In this document: in pieces, positions 4,752 to 14,536 of the stretch
How positions within the stretch are numbered: the first letter of the stretch is position 1
Layout: each line of letters begins with the position of its first letter
DNA from: a virus
Lineage: Duplodnaviria; Heunggongvirae; Uroviricota; Caudoviricetes
Virus record (IMG/VR): IMGVR_UViG_2728369187_000007
Span: 1-20,139 of that record
Reading direction: 5' to 3' (one strand)
Length of the DNA stretch: 20,139 bases
Notes under the pieces: generated by a model
The model's input: the letters and a program-made list of their open reading frames with translations, nothing else
Told to the model about the DNA's origin: nothing
Databases searched by the model: none
Position numbers and translations under genes: made by a program

Positions 4752-4809
4752 AAAAATGGCGGCAGAGCAGTCACGGAGTAAAACTGATACCGCCAAACGT
4801 CACCAGAAA
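4752..4809 (-). ncRNA. dicF: DicF small regulatory RNA (ftsZ-targeting sRNA of Qin-type prophages)
   Basis: Reverse complement reads UUUCUGGUGACGUUUGGCGGUAUCAGUUUUACUCCGUGACUGCUCUGCCGCCAUUUUU, near-identical to the DicF sequence as I recall it. Ends in a GC stem plus U-run; located between the leader and dicB. Confidence 0.75.
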
Positions 4810-8158: not shown

Positions 8159-8581
8159 GTGGCAAAAGTTTTTACACAGGAAGAGCGGGAAAAAATTAAA
8201 GAGCAGGTGGTCGAACTTGTGCGCCAGAGCGGTCGCGAGACATTACGACAGTTGGAAGCTAAAACAGGTGCGACAAGATATCTGATGAGCATTCTTGCCA
8301 GAGAGCTGGTTGCCAGTGGTTATGTATACAACTCCGGCTACGGGTTATTCCCGTCTGAACAGGCACGAAAGGACTGGCAAAATGCCCGCAAAAAACTCTC
8401 TAGGGCGAAGGTGAAGAAACCCGCTGTGGTTGATCCGGACCTTATCTGGTCACTACCTGATGGAGAAATACGTCGCTACGACAGTCGTCTAAACATAATC
8501 TGTCGCGAGTGCCGGAAGAGCGAAGTTATGCAGCGCATATTGTCGTTTTATCAGGGAAATGTTCGGTATCTATTTAAGTGA
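8159..8581 (+). CDS. Hypothetical protein (140 aa), replication-module associated
   Basis: GTG start with a strong RBS (AAGGAGGA, 8147-8154). Normal GC. No motif recognised; it does not look like a lambda P or DnaC-type helicase loader. Confidence 0.6.
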   Translation: MAKVFTQEEREKIKEQVVELVRQSGRETLRQLEAKTGATRYLMSILARELVASGYVYNSGYGLFPSEQARKDWQNARKKLSRAKVKKPAVVDPDLIWSLPDGEIRRYDSRLNIICRECRKSEVMQRILSFYQGNVRYLFK

Positions 8582-8896
8582 CGAGATTAAAGTGCATTAG
8601 TTAAGATGTAAATTGACATTTTCATGGCATAGGGTAGAGGTAGCGTGGTTGTCTGCTTTGTGCCATGAACTGATGTCGCTTGTGTGCGTGGCAATTAGTG
8701 TATAACGGATATCATCAGACTCCAGCAGTAGCATTGCTTGAGCATACTAACATATGAAATCTTTAGTTAACGTAAGATAAATTAGATTTAGTTTTTTTGA
8801 GTATGAGCTCATAAATAATCAAAAAAACTTGATACGCCATATGACTTTGATTTATTTTGGAAAAACATAAAGGTAATGTAATGTAAAGAGGAAAAT

Positions 8897-10384
8897 GTGG
8901 ACATTAGAGACTGGCTACCAGAATTTCAAGTTTCAGCAGAAACAGATCGGGACTTACAGACCTATTTTTTTAAGCTACCGGCGATAAAGGATATTATTGA
9001 AAGTAGGGCTTGGTTGGTTCTTGGAAGAAAAGGTACTGGTAAAACAGCCATTTATGAACACCTTAGAAGAGGAAAACCAGCCAATCTCAACGGGTTTTAC
9101 TCAGTATGTCTAAATTTTAGTGACTATCCATGGCCAGCCCATCAACTTTACAAGGATGCAATGGCTGGAGAACTTTCCGCTTATCAAAAAAGTTGGATGT
9201 ATCTTTTTTATATTAAGGCATTATCTAAACTTATTGAAATAAAAAATGATGCTGGAGAGACTTTAAACAAAGATCTAACGTGGGCACATAATTATATCAA
9301 AACTATCTTTGGTAGTCCCGACCCAACTCTTAGGGAGGTTTTGTTTTCAAAAATAACCAGATTAAAAACCATAAAAGGGCCCAGTGCTGGTCTTAATGAA
9401 GTATCATTGGACGCAGGTGAAATTTCGTTAGAGGAAGTTGCTGAGAATGCTCAGCTAAAGCAAAAGCTAAGAGCTAATGCTTTCACATTGCTTACGTATT
9501 TTGAAAAAATTTTTAAAGATAACATTGGTAATGAAAAAATAATTATCGCCCTTGACCAATTAGACGAAAACTGGCTAGAGGGGCAAATTGAAGAATATAG
9601 TAAGGTTTTAATAAATCTGCTAAATGTCTGTAGAAACATAGCATCTGATGAACGCCTCAATGATAAATTAAAAGTCATTCCCTTCCTACGAACGGATATT
9701 TATCATTCTTTGAAATTCAATGATAAAAACAAATTATTGCAAGATAGTGCTATCATAATCTCATGGAATGAAAATAATCTAAACGATATGTATTATGAGA
9801 GGATAAAGAAATACAAACCTAATGATCTCATATTAGATGACGAAAAGGACAGATCTGGGAAAGTATTTGAGGTTTCATTCGTTAGGCAGGGGACTCCTCC
9901 ATTTAAATATATATGTCGCCGTTCTTTCTTTAGGCCTAGGGATATTATTGTCTACTTCAACAAAATTAGGGCATGTCATAAAAATAATGTCTCAGGTCTT
10001 TACACTTCCAATGAGCTTTATGAAGCTGACCGTGAAGCATCTATAAGTGTGTACAATGAGGTGATTGATGAATGGTCCAACCAATTCCCTGAAATTGAGA
10101 ACTTACTAACTGTTCTTCAAACTATCCAAGTAGAAACATTCGATTTTAATGATTTCTCCGAGAAGTGCCGTAATGAATTTGCAGGTATTTCTGATGGGGT
10201 GATACGTCAATATATCAACTTCCTGTTTGATAACTCACTTATCGGACAAAAAAAACAAGGTAGATGGGAATACGTAAGTAGTTTGCCTAACTTAAAAATT
10301 AATCTACAAAATGAGTTTAGGACACATCATGCTTTAAAATACAGGTTGCATTTAATAGAAAGCAGACCGAGCCAAAATATTTAG
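8897..10384 (+). CDS. P-loop NTPase of unknown family (495 aa) on an AT-rich island; candidate accessory/defence gene
   Basis: GTG start with a GAGG RBS 5 nt upstream; in-frame stop 18 nt upstream. Walker A GRKGTGKT (aa 43-50); candidate Walker B IIIALDQLDE (about aa 215-224). Markedly AT-rich relative to flanks, preceded by about 315 bp of AT-rich non-coding DNA. Confidence 0.85.
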   Translation: MDIRDWLPEFQVSAETDRDLQTYFFKLPAIKDIIESRAWLVLGRKGTGKTAIYEHLRRGKPANLNGFYSVCLNFSDYPWPAHQLYKDAMAGELSAYQKSWMYLFYIKALSKLIEIKNDAGETLNKDLTWAHNYIKTIFGSPDPTLREVLFSKITRLKTIKGPSAGLNEVSLDAGEISLEEVAENAQLKQKLRANAFTLLTYFEKIFKDNIGNEKIIIALDQLDENWLEGQIEEYSKVLINLLNVCRNIASDERLNDKLKVIPFLRTDIYHSLKFNDKNKLLQDSAIIISWNENNLNDMYYERIKKYKPNDLILDDEKDRSGKVFEVSFVRQGTPPFKYICRRSFFRPRDIIVYFNKIRACHKNNVSGLYTSNELYEADREASISVYNEVIDEWSNQFPEIENLLTVLQTIQVETFDFNDFSEKCRNEFAGISDGVIRQYINFLFDNSLIGQKKQGRWEYVSSLPNLKINLQNEFRTHHALKYRLHLIESRPSQNI

Positions 10385-10656
10385 CTTACATCCATCTCCA
10401 TTAAGAAATCTTGCTATTGTTCTTATGGATCGTCTTTCTGACTGATTTCATATTGGCGAGGTAAAGGTAGTTAAGTAGAATGGCTGCGGGTGCTTGAGGC
10501 TATCTGCCTCGGGCATGAACACCAAAGGCAGATAGAGAAAAGCCCCAGTTAACATTACGCGTCCTGCAAGACGCTTAACATTAATCTGAGGCTCAATCTA
10601 TGAACGGCAAATCTAGGTTAGCCTCTTACGTGCCGAAAGGCAAGGAGAAGCAGGCT

Positions 10657-10812
10657 ATGAAGCAGCAAAAGGCGATGTTAATCGCCCTGATCGTCATCTG
10701 TTTAACCGTCATAGTGACGGCACTGGTAACGAGGAAAGACCTCTGCGAGGTACGAATCCGAACCGGCCAGACGGAGGTCGCTGTCTTCACAGCTTACGAA
10801 CCTGAGGAGTAA
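10657..10812 (+). CDS. hokD: Hok/Gef-family membrane toxin (HokD/RelF-like)
   Basis: 51-aa product MKQQKAMLIALIVICLTVIVTALVTRKDLCEVRIRTGQTEVAVFTAYEPEE with the single TM helix and conserved Cys of Hok toxins. RBS AAGGAGAAG upstream of the ATG at 10657. Confidence 0.85.
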   Translation: MKQQKAMLIALIVICLTVIVTALVTRKDLCEVRIRTGQTEVAVFTAYEPEE

Positions 10813-10955: not shown

Positions 10956-11348
10956 ATGAAGAAACTTGTTTTAGTCGCAGGTGTAATGATTGCAACAGTA
11001 ATGTTGGGAGGGTGTGCAGCAAAGGTCGATCCAGCGTTGAAAGCAGAAGCAATGAAGCCACTAACATGTAATGATGAAAAGCAATGTGACTTTTATTGGA
11101 AACGAGCGCAATTCTGGTTGGCTAATAATTCCTCATGGAAAATTCAAACGGCGACAGACACGCTAATTTCCACTTATAATCCCTCTCCAAATAGTCCATT
11201 CCTCGCTTATCAAGTGAGTAAAATGCCAAATGAAGATGGATCCTCAAGAATTTTCATCAAGCCTTTTTGCGATAATATGTTTGGCTGTCAACCAAACCCC
11301 TATCAGGCAGTTGTTTCCTTTAAAAACTTCGTTAAAACAGGGCAGTAG
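10956..11348 (+). CDS. Lipoprotein of unknown function (moron)
   Basis: Signal peptide with lipobox (VMLGGC, Cys20) plus four further Cys. GGGAGA RBS. Lower GC than the backbone. Bracketed by terminators upstream and downstream. Confidence 0.7.
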   Translation: MKKLVLVAGVMIATVMLGGCAAKVDPALKAEAMKPLTCNDEKQCDFYWKRAQFWLANNSSWKIQTATDTLISTYNPSPNSPFLAYQVSKMPNEDGSSRIFIKPFCDNMFGCQPNPYQAVVSFKNFVKTGQ

Positions 11349-12986: not shown

Positions 12987-13346
12987 ATGCGTATAGAGTT
13001 TGTTTTGCCTTATCCGCCGACGGTGAATACTTACTGGCGACGTCGTGGCAACACATATTTTGTATCAAAAGTCGGTGAGCGTTATCGCCGTGATGTGGCA
13101 CTAATTGTTCGCCAGCAGCGGTTGAAATTAAACCTGTCCGGAAGGCTGGCAATAAAAATTATTGCAGAGCCACCGGATAAGCGCCGCCGCGACCTGGACA
13201 ATATCCTGAAGGCACCACTGGATGCGCTGACGCATGCCGGACTTCTTATAGACGACGAGCAGTTTGATGAAATCAATATTGTGCGCGGACTGCCTGTTCC
13301 TGGTGGTCGGCTGGGGATAAAAATCACAGAACTGGAGTGCGCATGA
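12987..13346 (+). CDS. rusA: RusA-family Holliday junction resolvase
   Basis: 119 aa with the conserved PDKRRRDLDN catalytic region and a GGRL...I motif near the C-terminus. RBS AAAGAGG. Confidence 0.85.
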   Translation: MRIEFVLPYPPTVNTYWRRRGNTYFVSKVGERYRRDVALIVRQQRLKLNLSGRLAIKIIAEPPDKRRRDLDNILKAPLDALTHAGLLIDDEQFDEINIVRGLPVPGGRLGIKITELECA

Positions 13347-14032
13347 ATAACCAGTATTTACAGTTTGTGCGTGAGCAGCTCATTATCGCTACCGCTGATT
13401 TGAGTGGGGCAACAAAAGGTCAGCTTGAAGCCTGGCAGGAGAATGCCATGTTTGATACAGGGCGTTACAGGCGTAAAAAAATCCGGTACCGCGATGAAGT
13501 GACTGGAAGAATGATAACGCGGGATAGTCCACCGATACCGGGAAAACAATCACTGGCGAAAGGCTCATCAATTGCTCTGGTAAGTCAGGTTGAGTTTTCG
13601 ACATCATCATGGCGACGGGCAGTTCTGTCTCTTGAAGAACATCATAAAGCCTGGTTGTTGTGGTGTTACAGCGGGATTATTTGTTGGGAATATCAGATCG
13701 CGATAACACAGTGGGCGTGGAATGAATTTAATACTCAATCCGGTACCAGAAAAATTGCAGGGAAAACGCAGGAACGCCTGAAAAAATTAATCTGGCTGGC
13801 GGCGCAGGCAGTAAAAGCAGAACTTTTTGGTGGGGAAGGTTATGAATACCAGGAGCTGGCATTACTGGCGGGAGTGACAACTAAAAACTGGTCCAAAACA
13901 TTTACTCGTCACTGGGTTGCAATGAAACACATTTTTCACCGACTTGATAGTGAGGCTTTATTGTTTGTAATGAGAACACGTTCAAAACAAAAGGCGGCAT
14001 TTTCAAAGCAAAGTGTTGCAAAAGTAGATTGA
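13343..14032 (+). CDS. Late-gene antiterminator Q-like protein (putative)
   Basis: 229 aa; ATG overlaps the rusA stop (ATGA). Last gene before the promoter/terminator/lysis region. Assignment is by position, not by a recognised motif. Confidence 0.5.
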   Translation: MNNQYLQFVREQLIIATADLSGATKGQLEAWQENAMFDTGRYRRKKIRYRDEVTGRMITRDSPPIPGKQSLAKGSSIALVSQVEFSTSSWRRAVLSLEEHHKAWLLWCYSGIICWEYQIAITQWAWNEFNTQSGTRKIAGKTQERLKKLIWLAAQAVKAELFGGEGYEYQELALLAGVTTKNWSKTFTRHWVAMKHIFHRLDSEALLFVMRTRSKQKAAFSKQSVAKVD

Positions 14033-14226: not shown

Positions 14227-14302
14227 GGCCCTTTAGCTCAGTGGTGAGAGCGAGCGACTCATAATCGCCAGGTCGCTGGTTCAAATCCAGCAAGGGCCAC
14301 CA
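14227..14302 (+). tRNA. tRNA with anticodon CAT (elongator Met or Ile2-type)
   Basis: 76 nt. 7-bp acceptor stem GGCCCTT/AAGGGCC, D-arm GCTC...GAGC, anticodon loop CTCATAA, T-arm GCTGG-TTCAAAT-CCAGC, encoded CCA. G1-C72 pair argues against an initiator. Confidence 0.85.
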
Positions 14303-14303
14303 G

Positions 14304-14380
14304 CCGCCACTAGCTCATCAGGAAAGAGCGTCAACCCTTTAAGTTGAGTGTGCGAGGTTCGAGTCCCCGGTGGCGGTCCA
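14304..14380 (+). tRNA. tRNA-like gene, anticodon TTT (Lys) as read, atypical anticodon loop
   Basis: 77 nt. Perfect 7-bp acceptor stem, D-arm GCTC...GAGC, anticodon stem TCAAC/GTTGA with loop CCTTTAA (C at position 33), T-loop TTCGAGT with one A-C mismatch in the T-stem, encoded CCA. Confidence 0.6.
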
Positions 14381-14382
14381 GT

Positions 14383-14458
<76 letters not shown>

Positions 14459-14461
14459 TAT

Positions 14462-14536
<75 letters not shown>

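What the first reader, a model, noticed from the sequence alone, without database searches (positions are those of the whole stretch)
8582..10480. AT-rich ~1.9 kb island encoding a lone 495-aa P-loop NTPase between the replication module and hokD
The sequence is conspicuously AT-rich here (about 315 bp of AT-rich non-coding DNA, then the gene), while both flanks look like ~50% GC backbone, which suggests horizontal acquisition. The protein has an N-terminal Walker A (GRKGTGKT, aa 43-50), a candidate Walker B about 170 residues later (IIIALDQLDE), and roughly 270 C-terminal residues with no motif I recognise. In the related K-12 Qin prophage, as I recall, relBE sits immediately upstream of hokD; here that slot holds this gene instead. 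The replication-to-nin interval of lambdoid prophages is a known hotspot for anti-phage and abortive-infection cargo. I could not assign it to any named defence family.
Basis: partly seen in the sequence, partly recalled or inferred. Interest (0 to 1): 0.85.

Follow-up and report, generated by a model that had tools for sequence, protein, structure and literature searches.

The report
Lone prophage cargo ATPase, probable defence
A foreign, AT-rich single gene sits in a swap-in/swap-out cargo slot of an E. coli prophage and encodes an uncharacterised ATP-driven switch protein (Orc1/Cdc6/STAND-like, with no attached weapon domain) that is most likely an untested anti-phage defence gene.

Summary
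The 495-aa ORF (8897-10384, +) and its upstream spacer have 34.6% GC, against 48.8 ± 2.8% elsewhere in the window (z = -5.1). Comparison with other E. coli prophages places the cargo at about 8667-10408.

The protein is not unassignable. It is a full-length member of NCBIfam NF047389, "P-loop ATPase, Sll1717 family" (250 bits, cutoff 75). I found no function reported for this family. Its predicted fold is an AAA+ core, a lid and a winged helix. The closest structures are the archaeal ATPases SSO1545 and PAB2304 and Orc1/Cdc6, followed by NLR/Avs STAND proteins. It is not DnaC/IstB. It has no effector domain, no repeat sensor and no transmembrane segment.

The slot between DUF977 and hokD is a real cargo hotspot. 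It is empty in BL21 and holds relBE in K-12. Elsewhere it holds SIR2, AbiH, a KwaB-like gene or a type II R-M system.

The same lone gene sits in other prophage accessory slots:
- the P2 gpA-portal hotspot;
- a position next to int;
- a position after lysin.

It occurs across many phyla at over 60% identity under strong purifying selection.

My best reading is a single-gene anti-phage NTPase switch (about 0.55). The mechanism is inferred, not shown. It is a new variant of a known kind, of moderate interest.

The parts
8582..8666 (.). Conserved prophage backbone after the DUF977 stop codon. It contains an inverted repeat (8621-8638 / 8652-8669) that ends at the left junction of the cargo.
   Evidence: Other E. 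coli prophages match up to window 8665-8668 and then diverge. The inverted repeat has 18-nt arms, 78% complementary. GC is 40%.
8667..10408 (+). Cargo island: a 1742-bp AT-rich insert carrying one gene.
   Evidence: The junctions come from comparison with 338 E. coli genomes and the empty BL21/Rosetta site. GC is 34.6%, z = -5.1 against the rest of the window.
8757..8896 (+). Gene-proximal upstream region that travels with the gene in Proteus. It holds the only promoter-like site before the gene (TTGATA-18-TATTTT, 8829-8858), an adjacent 15-nt inverted repeat (8790-8804 / 8815-8829) and a GAGG ribosome-binding site (8888-8891).
   Evidence: blastn homology to the Proteus loci extends to 8757. 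In Klebsiella, Serratia and Vibrio it covers the ORF only. The number of promoter-like sites in the region is not above chance (8 found, 6.8 expected). Inverted repeat. GC is 23.6%.
8897..10384 (+). Gene for the 495-aa Sll1717-family P-loop ATPase (AAA+ core, lid and winged helix).
9023..9046 (+). Walker A / P-loop, GRKGTGKT (aa 43-50).
   Evidence: Read directly from the sequence. G43, K45, G46, G48 and K49 are invariant in 83 relatives at 20-55% identity.
9125..9526 (+). All-helical insert (aa 77-210) between strand 2 and the Walker B strand, at the position of the Orc1/Cdc6 initiator-specific (HEH) insert. It carries the aromatic motif Y77-P-W-P-x-H82 ... Y96-Q-K-S-W100. It is a candidate sensing or interaction surface.
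   Evidence: Secondary structure of the model. Residues 77-120 are among the most conserved segments of the subfamily, with mean majority frequency 0.84. W100 is invariant family-wide. The assigned role is inference.
9539..9568 (+). Extended Walker B, IIIALDQLDE (aa 215-224), of the STAND/NACHT-like hhhhDxxDE type.
   Evidence: D220 and D223 are invariant family-wide. The motif lies on strand 214-220 of the model.
9689..9691 (+). Arg265 at the end of strand 4, in the sensor-1 position (STAND-type arginine).
   Evidence: Invariant in A1 and A2. It follows strand 258-264 in the model. Its assignment as sensor-1 is inference.
9932..9943 (+). The R346-P-R-D349 motif in the lid domain, a GxP / sensor-2-like element.
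   Evidence: P347 and R348 are invariant. R346 and D349 are at least 90% conserved family-wide. The motif sits at the start of helix 347-359. Its role is inferred.
10127..10348 (+). C-terminal winged-helix-like domain (aa 411-484).
   Evidence: The model shows helices 417-427 and 433-445, a beta hairpin 449-458, strand 474-476 and helix 478-484. Foldseek alignments (about 490-500 columns, gaps included) match Orc1/Cdc6 (2qby_A, E 9e-6) and SSO1545. The net charge is slightly negative.

Best explanation
What it is. The segment at about 8667-10408 is a horizontally acquired, one-gene cargo module in the variable slot between the replication-region gene DUF977 and hok/sok of a Qin-like lambdoid prophage. 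Its product is a soluble, catalytically competent AAA+ NTPase of the Sll1717 family. The architecture lies between Orc1/Cdc6 and STAND (MNS/'archaeal ATPase' type): nucleotide-binding domain, lid and winged helix, plus a conserved aromatic-rich helical insert.

Most likely function (inferred). It is a stand-alone anti-phage, superinfection-exclusion or abortive-infection gene that protects the lysogen.

Proposed mechanism (all steps inferred):
1. The protein idles as an ADP/ATP-locked monomer.
2. An infection cue opens the switch. The cue is probably a nucleic acid or another feature conserved among invaders. It would be read by the insert and winged helix rather than by a fast-evolving phage-protein sensor.
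3. ATP-dependent self-assembly follows, as in Orc1/Cdc6, TnsC/MuB and STAND proteins.
4. No enzymatic effector is encoded. The oligomer itself would therefore act, by occupying invading DNA or sequestering a replication or packaging factor, or it would recruit a universally present host factor.

What is shown: the island, the family, the fold class, the intact motifs, the hotspot, the lone and mobile distribution, and purifying selection. What is not shown: defence, the trigger, oligomerisation and the target.
For: Foreign cargo:
- GC is 34.6% against 48.8 ± 2.8% elsewhere.
- 41 of 5426 E. coli genomes carry it.
- The BL21/Rosetta Qin-like prophage has the slot empty.

Hotspot. The same DUF977-proximal slot holds, in other E. 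coli prophages:
- relBE;
- a lone SIR2 gene;
- AbiH plus a hypothetical gene;
- a KwaB-like gene;
- an M/NgoMIV type II R-M system;
- and, by annotation alone, DUF4209, NUDIX/HAD and RelE/ParE genes, among others.

The same lone gene in other prophage accessory slots:
- Serratia P2-like prophage, between gpA and ogr/portal. This is the old/tin hotspot defined in PMC9122126.
- Klebsiella P2-like prophage, between gpU and the tail-fibre genes.
- Proteus lambdoid prophage, next to int.
- V. cholerae, beside a filamentous prophage.
- Lactococcus phage CAP, a distant relative right after lysin.
- Ten IMG/VR viral contigs.

Neighbourhoods:
- No conserved neighbour appears across the sampled loci from many phyla.
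- Neighbours include integrases, VapE, CII, S24 repressors, ParE, Drt2, PDC-S05, PDC-M37, AbiTii, GmrSD and methyltransferases.

Fold and motifs:
- Foldseek: Orc1/Cdc6 2qby_A, E 9e-6.
- Walker A, Walker B, Arg265 and the RPRD motif are invariant.

Conflict-system links in distant relatives:
- Fusions to a GT4-conflict glycosyltransferase, to EAD7 adaptor domains and to cold-shock nucleic-acid-binding domains. EAD7 is described as an effector-recruiting adaptor in PMC7159879.
- 60 of 83 relatives give partial hits to PADLOC candidate PDC-M28C.

Selection:
- dN/dS is about 0.07, and synonymous sites are saturated between enterobacterial copies. The gene is maintained for function.
Against: - There is no experimental evidence. 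No paper in the searchable library names the family, and it is absent from the DefensePredictor supplements.
- PADLOC 2.0 does not classify it. The only hit is 20.6 bits over residues 212-304.
- There is no effector domain, repeat sensor or transmembrane segment. The killing or blocking step is therefore unexplained.
- Conservation is uniform and very high: 61-71% identity from E. coli to Bacteroidota and Patescibacteria, with no hypervariable region. This is atypical for arms-race sensors.
- Some copies sit among housekeeping genes with no mobile-element or defence neighbours, for example Methylococcaceae.
- The winged helix is not basic and the overall pI is 6.5. This weakens a simple DNA-binding model.
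- The promoter-like site is not above chance, so expression in the lysogen is unknown.
Confidence: 0.55

Rival explanations
1. A replication accessory or initiator/loader protein (Orc1/Cdc6- or DnaC-like) that serves the prophage's own DNA replication.
For: - The gene lies directly downstream of, and is co-oriented with, the replication-region genes.
Against: - It is absent from most prophages with the same replication genes. BL21 has an empty slot, and other strains have unrelated cargo there.
- The same gene sits in tail regions, next to int, in the P2 gpA-portal hotspot, and among housekeeping genes.
- Its composition is foreign to the replication module.
- There is no Pfam or NCBIfam hit to DnaC/IstB, DnaA or Cdc6. 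TIGR02928 scores 11 bits against a cutoff of 181.
Confidence: 0.06
2. A non-defence moron: an NTP-gated regulator that changes host physiology or prophage gene expression. It would resemble STAND transcription regulators such as MalT, acting through its winged helix.
For: - The module is a STAND/Orc1-like switch plus a winged helix with no effector.
- Strong, uniform purifying selection fits a housekeeping-like molecular task.
- Some chromosomal copies have no mobile-element context.
Against: - A regulator needs a conserved target, yet the gene moves alone between phyla. In Klebsiella, Serratia and Vibrio the homology covers the ORF only.
- The winged helix is not basic.
- Its repeated placement in slots that otherwise carry Abi, R-M, SIR2 and TA cargo is better explained by defence.
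Confidence: 0.12
3. One half of a split system. The ATPase is a sensor/switch that needs a partner encoded elsewhere: the adjacent hok/sok, another prophage gene or a host effector. This would resemble the multi-gene candidate PDC-M28 or BREX/MADS ATPases.
For: - There is a partial PADLOC similarity to PDC-M28C, the third protein of a multi-gene candidate, and to mad8.
- Relatives carrying EAD7 adaptor domains imply recruited effectors.
- No effector is built into the protein.
Against: - No gene recurs next to it in the neighbourhoods examined across many phyla.
- hok/sok is adjacent only in E. coli.
- The PDC-M28C match covers only the segment from Walker B to sensor-1, about 90-140 residues of a 480-position profile.
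- The window protein has no EAD.
Confidence: 0.14
4. A selfish or addictive element, or a decaying passenger: a toxic ATPase kept by post-segregational killing, or a gene with no current function in E. coli.
For: - It lies beside a type I TA locus, in a slot that also hosts relBE.
- One E. coli copy is interrupted by IS3.
- The AT-rich DNA may be silenced (inference).
Against: - There is no cognate antitoxin ORF. There is also no tandem-repeat RNA upstream of the kind seen with type III antitoxins.
- Of the 41 E. coli copies, at least 25 are at least 99.8% identical to the window over the full length; the one interrupted copy seen is the IS3 case.
- dN/dS is about 0.07 across genera, which shows selection on the protein.
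Confidence: 0.08

Closest known systems
NCBIfam NF047389, 'P-loop ATPase, Sll1717 family' (also PHROG 13260, function unknown)
   Same: Full-length match well above the curated cutoff (250.4 bits against 75). RefSeq annotates the identical E. coli protein WP_000354584.1 with this name.
   Different: The family name carries no function. No paper in the library mentions it. No relative detectable by sequence has a solved structure.
Archaeal 'Walker-type/AAA+ ATPases' SSO1545 (PDB 2fna) and PAB2304 (2qen), and archaeal Orc1/Cdc6 (2qby, 1fnn, 1w5s)
   Different: Sequence identity is only 10-16%. The Cdc6 HMM is not matched. The helical insert after strand 2 is much larger (aa 77-210). The genomic setting is prophage cargo slots, not replication origins.
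Antiviral STAND NTPases (Avs, bNACHT, NLR-like)
   Same: - The Walker B is extended in the STAND style (DxxDE).
- An arginine occupies the sensor-1 position.
- The order of domains is NBD, lid, winged helix.
- It is carried on prophages.
   Different: - It has no N-terminal effector and no C-terminal repeat sensor. The protein is 495 aa in total, whereas Avs sensors alone are usually at least 400 aa (PMC preprint 10.64898/2026.01.04.697583).
- The window protein has no Avs or NACHT HMM hit.
- It shows no hypervariable region.
BrxC/PglY and related Orc/Cdc6-type ATPases of BREX, and MADS mad8
   Different: Those proteins are large and multidomain and work with methyltransferase and PglZ partners. 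This one is small and lone, with no such neighbours.
KAP-family single-gene NTPase defences (Gao Tmn; 'Reve' from P4 hotspots, PMC13586616)
   Same: Single-gene P-loop NTPase cargo of temperate-phage or satellite hotspots.
   Different: The window protein has no KAP_NTPase hit at E ≤ 1, and only 1 of 83 relatives hits it, at E 0.009. It has no transmembrane segment.

Membership tests
NCBIfam NF047389 (Sll1717-family P-loop ATPase) | HMM score above the curated cutoff over the full profile | tested here: met
   250.4 bits against a cutoff of 75. Residues 13-484 align to profile positions 5-454 of 454.
STAND NTPases | P-loop NTPase with Walker A and extended Walker B (hhhhDxxDE) | tested here: met
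   GRKGTGKT (43-50) and IIIALDQLDE (215-224). D220 and D223 are invariant in 83 relatives.
STAND NTPases | Conserved arginine at the end of strand 4 (sensor-1), followed by a helical lid with a GxP-type motif and a winged helix | tested here: inconclusive
   R265 is invariant after strand 258-264. The lid has the RPRD motif (P347 and R348 invariant) rather than a canonical GxP. A winged helix is modelled. These assignments rest on a predicted model.
STAND NTPases | Match to a STAND sequence model (NACHT, NB-ARC, nSTAND1-6, AAA_16) at the curated threshold | tested here: not met
   The window protein hits only AAA_16, at 14.9 bits (cutoff 32.6). Relatives give sub-threshold hits: AAA_16 in 46 of 83, nSTAND3 in 7, NPHP3_N in 4, NACHT in 1.
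Avs / bNACHT antiviral STAND systems | Tripartite architecture: N-terminal effector, STAND core and a large C-terminal sensor | tested here: not met
   The 495 aa are fully accounted for by the NBD with its insert, the lid and the winged helix. There is no effector or repeat domain and no Avs HMM hit in PADLOC.
Orc1/Cdc6 initiators | AAA+ core, lid and C-terminal winged helix, with a helical (ISM/HEH) insert after strand 2 | tested here: met
Orc1/Cdc6 initiators | Sequence-model membership (TIGR02928 / Pfam Cdc6) and linkage to a replication origin or replicon | tested here: not met
   TIGR02928 scores 11.2 bits against a cutoff of 181.3. The Pfam ORC-CDC6-like model is matched only below threshold, in 45 of 83 relatives. 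The gene occurs in tail regions, int-proximal positions and housekeeping contexts.
DnaC/IstB helicase loaders | Match to IstB_IS21/DnaC models or closest structural similarity to DnaC/IstB | tested here: not met
KAP NTPases (Tmn-like) | KAP_NTPase domain, usually with transmembrane helices inserted in or after the P-loop domain | tested here: not met
   No KAP hit at E ≤ 1. The maximum 19-residue Kyte-Doolittle mean is 0.83, so no transmembrane segment is predicted.
PADLOC candidate system PDC-M28 | Full-length match to PDC-M28C, with PDC-M28A and B encoded alongside | tested here: not met
   The hit is 20.6 bits and covers only residues 212-304, on profile positions 169-256 of 480. The relatives checked individually are also partial. 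No partner genes are present, since the island holds one gene.
Anti-phage defence system (generic) | Residence in variable hotspots of prophages, satellites or defence islands alongside known defence genes | tested here: met
   - E. coli DUF977-hokD slot.
- P2 gpA-portal hotspot.
- Neighbours include AbiTii, GmrSD, Drt2 and PDC-S05.
Anti-phage defence system (generic) | Experimentally measured protection against phage that depends on catalytic residues | not testable with these tools
   This needs plaque and liquid-infection assays. No published test was found.

The most novel reading that the evidence does not exclude
A minimal, effector-less Orc1/Cdc6-STAND hybrid ATPase is by itself a complete anti-phage system. 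On sensing a conserved invader feature (nucleic acid or replication intermediate), it assembles with ATP into an oligomer or filament. That assembly directly blocks phage DNA replication or packaging, or sequesters a universal replication factor. This would be an initiator-like AAA+ protein turned into an immune effector. It would also explain why the protein is held at over 60% identity from E. coli to Bacteroidota and Patescibacteria.
Probability: 0.15. Interest if true: 0.75.

Novelty: new variant of a known kind. Interest (0 to 1): 0.5.

Why it matters
If the gene protects against phage, it would define a single-protein defence built only from an AAA+ switch and a winged helix. That raises the question of how immunity is executed without a nuclease, NADase, protease or pore.

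Its extreme conservation across phyla suggests a target or trigger common to very different phages or hosts. That could make it broadly active and portable.

The analysis also documents the DUF977-hokD interval of Qin-like prophages as a cargo hotspot. It holds SIR2, AbiH, KwaB-like, R-M and RelBE genes, or is empty, and could be mined like the P2/P4 hotspots. If the gene shows no phenotype, it remains an ordinary uncharacterised moron.

Tried and rejected
- Pfam on the protein gave nothing significant. PADLOC gave only a partial PDC-M28C hit. Checking 10 distant relatives one by one showed that this match never extends beyond the segment from Walker B to sensor-1, so I dropped the PDC-M28 lead.
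- PDB sequence searches with the protein and with an 83-sequence profile found only P-loop matches.
- The BFVD viral fold search was uninformative. The afdb50 library was unavailable.
- Literature searches for Sll1717, WP_000354584 and PDC-M28 found 0 papers. ORC-CDC6-like/PF24389 and Cdc6 plus anti-phage returned only BREX-type papers. The DefensePredictor supplements and the Rousset 2022 supplements did not contain the protein.
- The supplements of the NAR 2026 paper that names 'Reve' are not held, and Brenes & Laub 2025 is not held, so neither could be checked.
- I first guessed that LF82 'Tritos' morons LF82_281/282 were this gene. They are not: LF82 carries a different, opposite-strand 445-aa cargo in the slot.
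- I looked for a type III-like antitoxin repeat array or a small partner ORF upstream and found none.
- The promoter and terminator scans were not above chance.
- The idea that the conserved N-terminus (aa 1-35) is an effector peptide was rejected. It corresponds to the usual helix that precedes the P-loop in AAA_16/Orc-type ATPases (inference from the family consensus).
- A strongly basic DNA-binding winged helix is not supported by the charge distribution.
Full report
**1.

The ORF 8897..10384 (+) encodes 495 aa from a GTG start. A GAGG ribosome-binding site lies at 8888-8891. All 35 aligned homologues begin at the same M-D-I, which supports this start.

The 315-bp upstream spacer has no ORF of 50 aa or more. 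Composition differs sharply from the rest of the window:

| Region | GC | GC3 |
|---|---|---|
| ATPase gene | 35.1% | 30.6% |
| Upstream spacer 8582-8896 | 33.7% | - |
| Neighbouring prophage genes | 47-56% | 44-57% |
| Island 8667-10408 (1742 bp) | 34.6% | - |
| 295 equal-sized windows elsewhere | 48.8 ± 2.8% (minimum 43.5%) | - |

The island's z-score is -5.1.

**2. Boundaries and setting**

The window is a Qin-like lambdoid prophage. In order it carries:
- int, xis and exo, then DicF (4757-4808, -);
- a cI-like repressor, cro, a ydaT-like gene, a 339-aa replication-region protein and DUF977 (8159-8581);
- the island;
- sok (10488-10662) and a Hok/Gef ORF (10600-10812);
- DUF968, Q, four tRNA genes, lysis genes and terminase.

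Megablast against 5426 complete E. coli genomes finds the whole island in 41 of them. At least 25 of these are at least 99.8% identical to the window, and the one interrupted copy seen is split by IS3. Homology to other prophages therefore stops at about 8666-8668 and resumes at 10409. An inverted repeat (8621-8669) ends exactly at the left junction.

The Qin-like prophage of BL21/Rosetta has the slot empty, with DUF977, 262 bp and then hokD.

**3. The slot is a cargo hotspot**

Immediately downstream of DUF977, other E. coli prophages carry:
- a lone SIR2 gene;
- AbiH plus a hypothetical gene;
- QueH plus a KwaB-like gene;
- a cytosine methyltransferase plus an NgoMIV endonuclease;
- and, by annotation alone, DUF4209, HAD/NUDIX, RelE/ParE, DUF7167, DUF5677 and DUF6731 genes, among others.

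LF82's 'Tritos' prophage carries yet another cargo here, a 445-aa gene on the opposite strand.

**4. What the protein is**

It is not an orphan:
- NCBIfam NF047389, "P-loop ATPase, Sll1717 family", matches end to end (250.4 bits, cutoff 75).
- PHROG 13260, of unknown function, also matches.
- RefSeq already uses the NCBIfam name for the identical protein WP_000354584.1.
- Pfam gives nothing significant.
- PADLOC gives only a 93-residue partial hit to candidate PDC-M28C.

An AlphaFold2 model from a 36-sequence alignment is confident (pLDDT 80.5, pTM 0.79). Structural matches are:
- Foldseek: archaeal Orc1/Cdc6 ranks first, with alignments spanning about 490-500 columns (2qby_A, E 9e-6).

The architecture is therefore an AAA+ base, a lid and a C-terminal winged helix. 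A large all-helical insert (aa 77-210) sits where Orc1/Cdc6 proteins carry their initiator-specific insert.

Across 83 relatives at 20-55% identity the invariant residues are F24, G43, K45, G46, G48, K49, W100, D220, D223, R265, R302, P347, R348 and E392. This gives an intact P-loop, an extended STAND-like Walker B (DxxDE), an arginine in the sensor-1 position and an RPRD lid motif. The protein is very likely an active NTPase (inference).

It has no transmembrane segment. It has no additional domain that could serve as an effector or a repeat sensor. No DnaC/IstB, DnaA or Cdc6 sequence model is matched.

**5. Distribution**

The subfamily is remarkably conserved and mobile.
- Proteins 61-72% identical occur in Vibrio, Nitrosomonas, Methylococcaceae, Arcobacteraceae, Sulfuricurvum, Bdellovibrionaceae, Flavobacteriia and other Bacteroidota, and two Patescibacteria. 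Ignavibacteria and Leptospiraceae have copies at 49%.
- Among the E. coli, Klebsiella and Serratia copies synonymous sites are saturated (pS 0.80-0.88), while pN is 0.07-0.14. Against Proteus, dN/dS is 0.07.
- No segment is hypervariable. The most conserved parts are the sensor-1 region and the first part of the insert, which carries Y77-P-W-P-x-H82 ... Y96-Q-K-S-W100.
- The gene keeps 31-35% GC even inside Klebsiella and Serratia prophages with 53-62% GC flanks. In those, and in Vibrio, nucleotide homology covers the ORF only. Only Proteus shares 140 bp of upstream sequence.
- The wider family has 1373 clusters at 50% identity with E below 1e-3. Nearly all are 470-520 aa and stand-alone.

**6. 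Neighbourhoods**

No gene recurs next to it. Its positions are telling:

| Host / element | Position |
|---|---|
| Serratia P2-like prophage | Between gpA and ogr/portal, the old/tin hotspot of Rousset et al. (PMC9122126) |
| Klebsiella P2-like prophage | Between gpU and the tail-fibre genes |
| Proteus lambdoid prophage | Next to int |
| V. cholerae | Beside a filamentous prophage near rtxA |
| Arcobacteraceae | Near AbiTii |
| Tenacibaculum | Near GmrSD or a DNA methyltransferase |
| IMG/VR | Ten viral contigs |
| Lactococcus phage CAP | A 490-aa distant relative directly after lysin |

Pooled neighbours from 16 further loci include integrases, VapE, CII, S24 repressors, ParE, Drt2, PDC-S05, PDC-M37 and a type II methyltransferase. 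One Methylococcaceae copy lies among housekeeping genes.

Rare fused relatives carry one of the following:
- a C-terminal GT4-conflict glycosyltransferase;
- two EAD7 adaptor domains, described as effector-recruiting in PMC7159879;
- an N-terminal cold-shock nucleic-acid-binding domain.

**7. Interpretation**

The combination of evidence makes a single-gene anti-phage or exclusion function the best explanation (about 0.55):
- foreign composition;
- presence/absence polymorphism in a slot that otherwise holds Abi, R-M, SIR2 and TA cargo;
- recurrence of the same lone gene in independent prophage accessory hotspots;
- conflict-system domain fusions in relatives;
- strong purifying selection.

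How it would act is inferred. By analogy with Orc1/Cdc6, TnsC/MuB and STAND proteins, I propose a nucleotide-locked monomer that is released by an infection cue and self-assembles with ATP. With no enzymatic effector, the assembly itself would block or sequester something, or it would recruit a universal host factor. The cold-shock-domain fusions, the conserved aromatic insert and the cross-phylum conservation hint at a nucleic-acid or otherwise universal cue rather than a specific phage protein.

Against a simple DNA-binding model, the winged helix is not basic and the pI is 6.5.

Against defence in general:
- there are no experimental data;
- defence HMM libraries do not recognise it;
- its conservation pattern is unlike arms-race sensors.

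**8. Rivals**

- A replication initiator or loader for the prophage (0.06). The fold and position fit, but the empty or alternative slots, the unrelated positions elsewhere and the failed sequence-model tests contradict it.
- A non-defence NTP-gated regulator or moron (0.12).
- A split system with a remote partner (0.14).
- A selfish, toxic or decaying passenger (0.08).

**9. Literature**

Within the searchable library, no paper mentions the family or the accession. The DefensePredictor supplements lack it. Two checks could not be made:
- A 2026 NAR paper names a single-gene 'Reve' system (ATPase plus KAP P-loop) from P4 hotspots, but its sequence is not held. The absence of any KAP hit or transmembrane segment in the window protein argues against identity.
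- Brenes & Laub 2025 is not held.

**10. Verdict**

This is a new variant of a known kind, namely AAA+/STAND-type NTPase cargo of prophage hotspots. What sets it apart is that it lacks an effector and is unusually conserved. Interest is 0.5.

Noticed in passing
window 10956-11348 (+): There is a second variable slot just downstream of hok/sok. Here it holds a 130-aa predicted lipoprotein (MKKLVLVAGVMIATVMLGGC..., 40% GC, no Pfam family). K-12 and NRG 857C carry rem at this position, and O55:H7 TB182A carries a hypothetical gene plus an HTH gene. It may be a surface-exclusion-type moron.
   Followed up: partly
window 14227-14536 (+): A cluster of four tRNA genes (Met-CAT, Lys-TTT, Thr-TGT, Gly-TCC) lies directly after the Q antiterminator gene (13337-14032). 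NRG 857C has cold-shock genes in the corresponding late-region position.
   Followed up: no
window 8621-8669: An inverted repeat (TTCATGGCATAGGGTAGA / TCTGCTTTGTGCCATGAA) in the conserved backbone ends exactly where homology to other prophages stops (8666-8668). It may be a terminator or a recombination landmark for cargo exchange.
   Followed up: partly
window 8757-8896: This 140-bp stretch has 23.6% GC and is shared with the Proteus copy only. It holds a 15-nt, 93%-complementary inverted repeat (8790-8804 / 8815-8829) that abuts the -35 of the only promoter-like site before the gene (8829-8858). It could be an operator or a silencing target.
   Followed up: no
window 8453-8581 (3' end of the DUF977 gene): Compared with BL21/Rosetta, divergence begins inside DUF977, at 8453. 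The DUF977 C-terminus therefore differs (140 aa here, 119 aa in BL21), so some exchange events include the gene's 3' end.
   Followed up: no
L011, L012, L014 versus window 8897-10381: Synonymous sites are saturated between the enterobacterial copies (pS 0.80-0.88) although the proteins are 81-89% identical. dN/dS is 0.07 against Proteus. The cross-phylum similarity therefore reflects strong constraint and not only recent transfer.
   Followed up: yes
H29, E. coli STEC313 (NZ_CP041433.1 4338403-4341564): One E. coli genome carries the ATPase gene split by an IS3-family element.
   Followed up: no
L002 7573-9485 (V. cholerae): The Vibrio copy (71% identical) lies beside a filamentous prophage (Rep_trans ... 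Zot) close to rtxA. A 97-aa ORF precedes it and also accompanies it on a second contig (L004). No counterpart of that ORF exists in the window.
   Followed up: partly
P0164, P0170, P0249, P0253 (distant relatives): Family members are fused to a GT4-conflict glycosyltransferase, to two EAD7 adaptor domains inserted after the P-loop, or to an N-terminal cold-shock domain. These are the only built-in effector or sensor candidates seen in the family.
   Followed up: partly
LF82 'Tritos' prophage (PMC9928086, S1 Table): In LF82 the same DUF977-hokD slot holds a different 445-aa gene on the opposite strand (LF82_282). It is transcribed at roughly 3-6 times the level of neighbouring lytic genes in LB. 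hokD is the most highly expressed gene of that prophage.
   Followed up: partly
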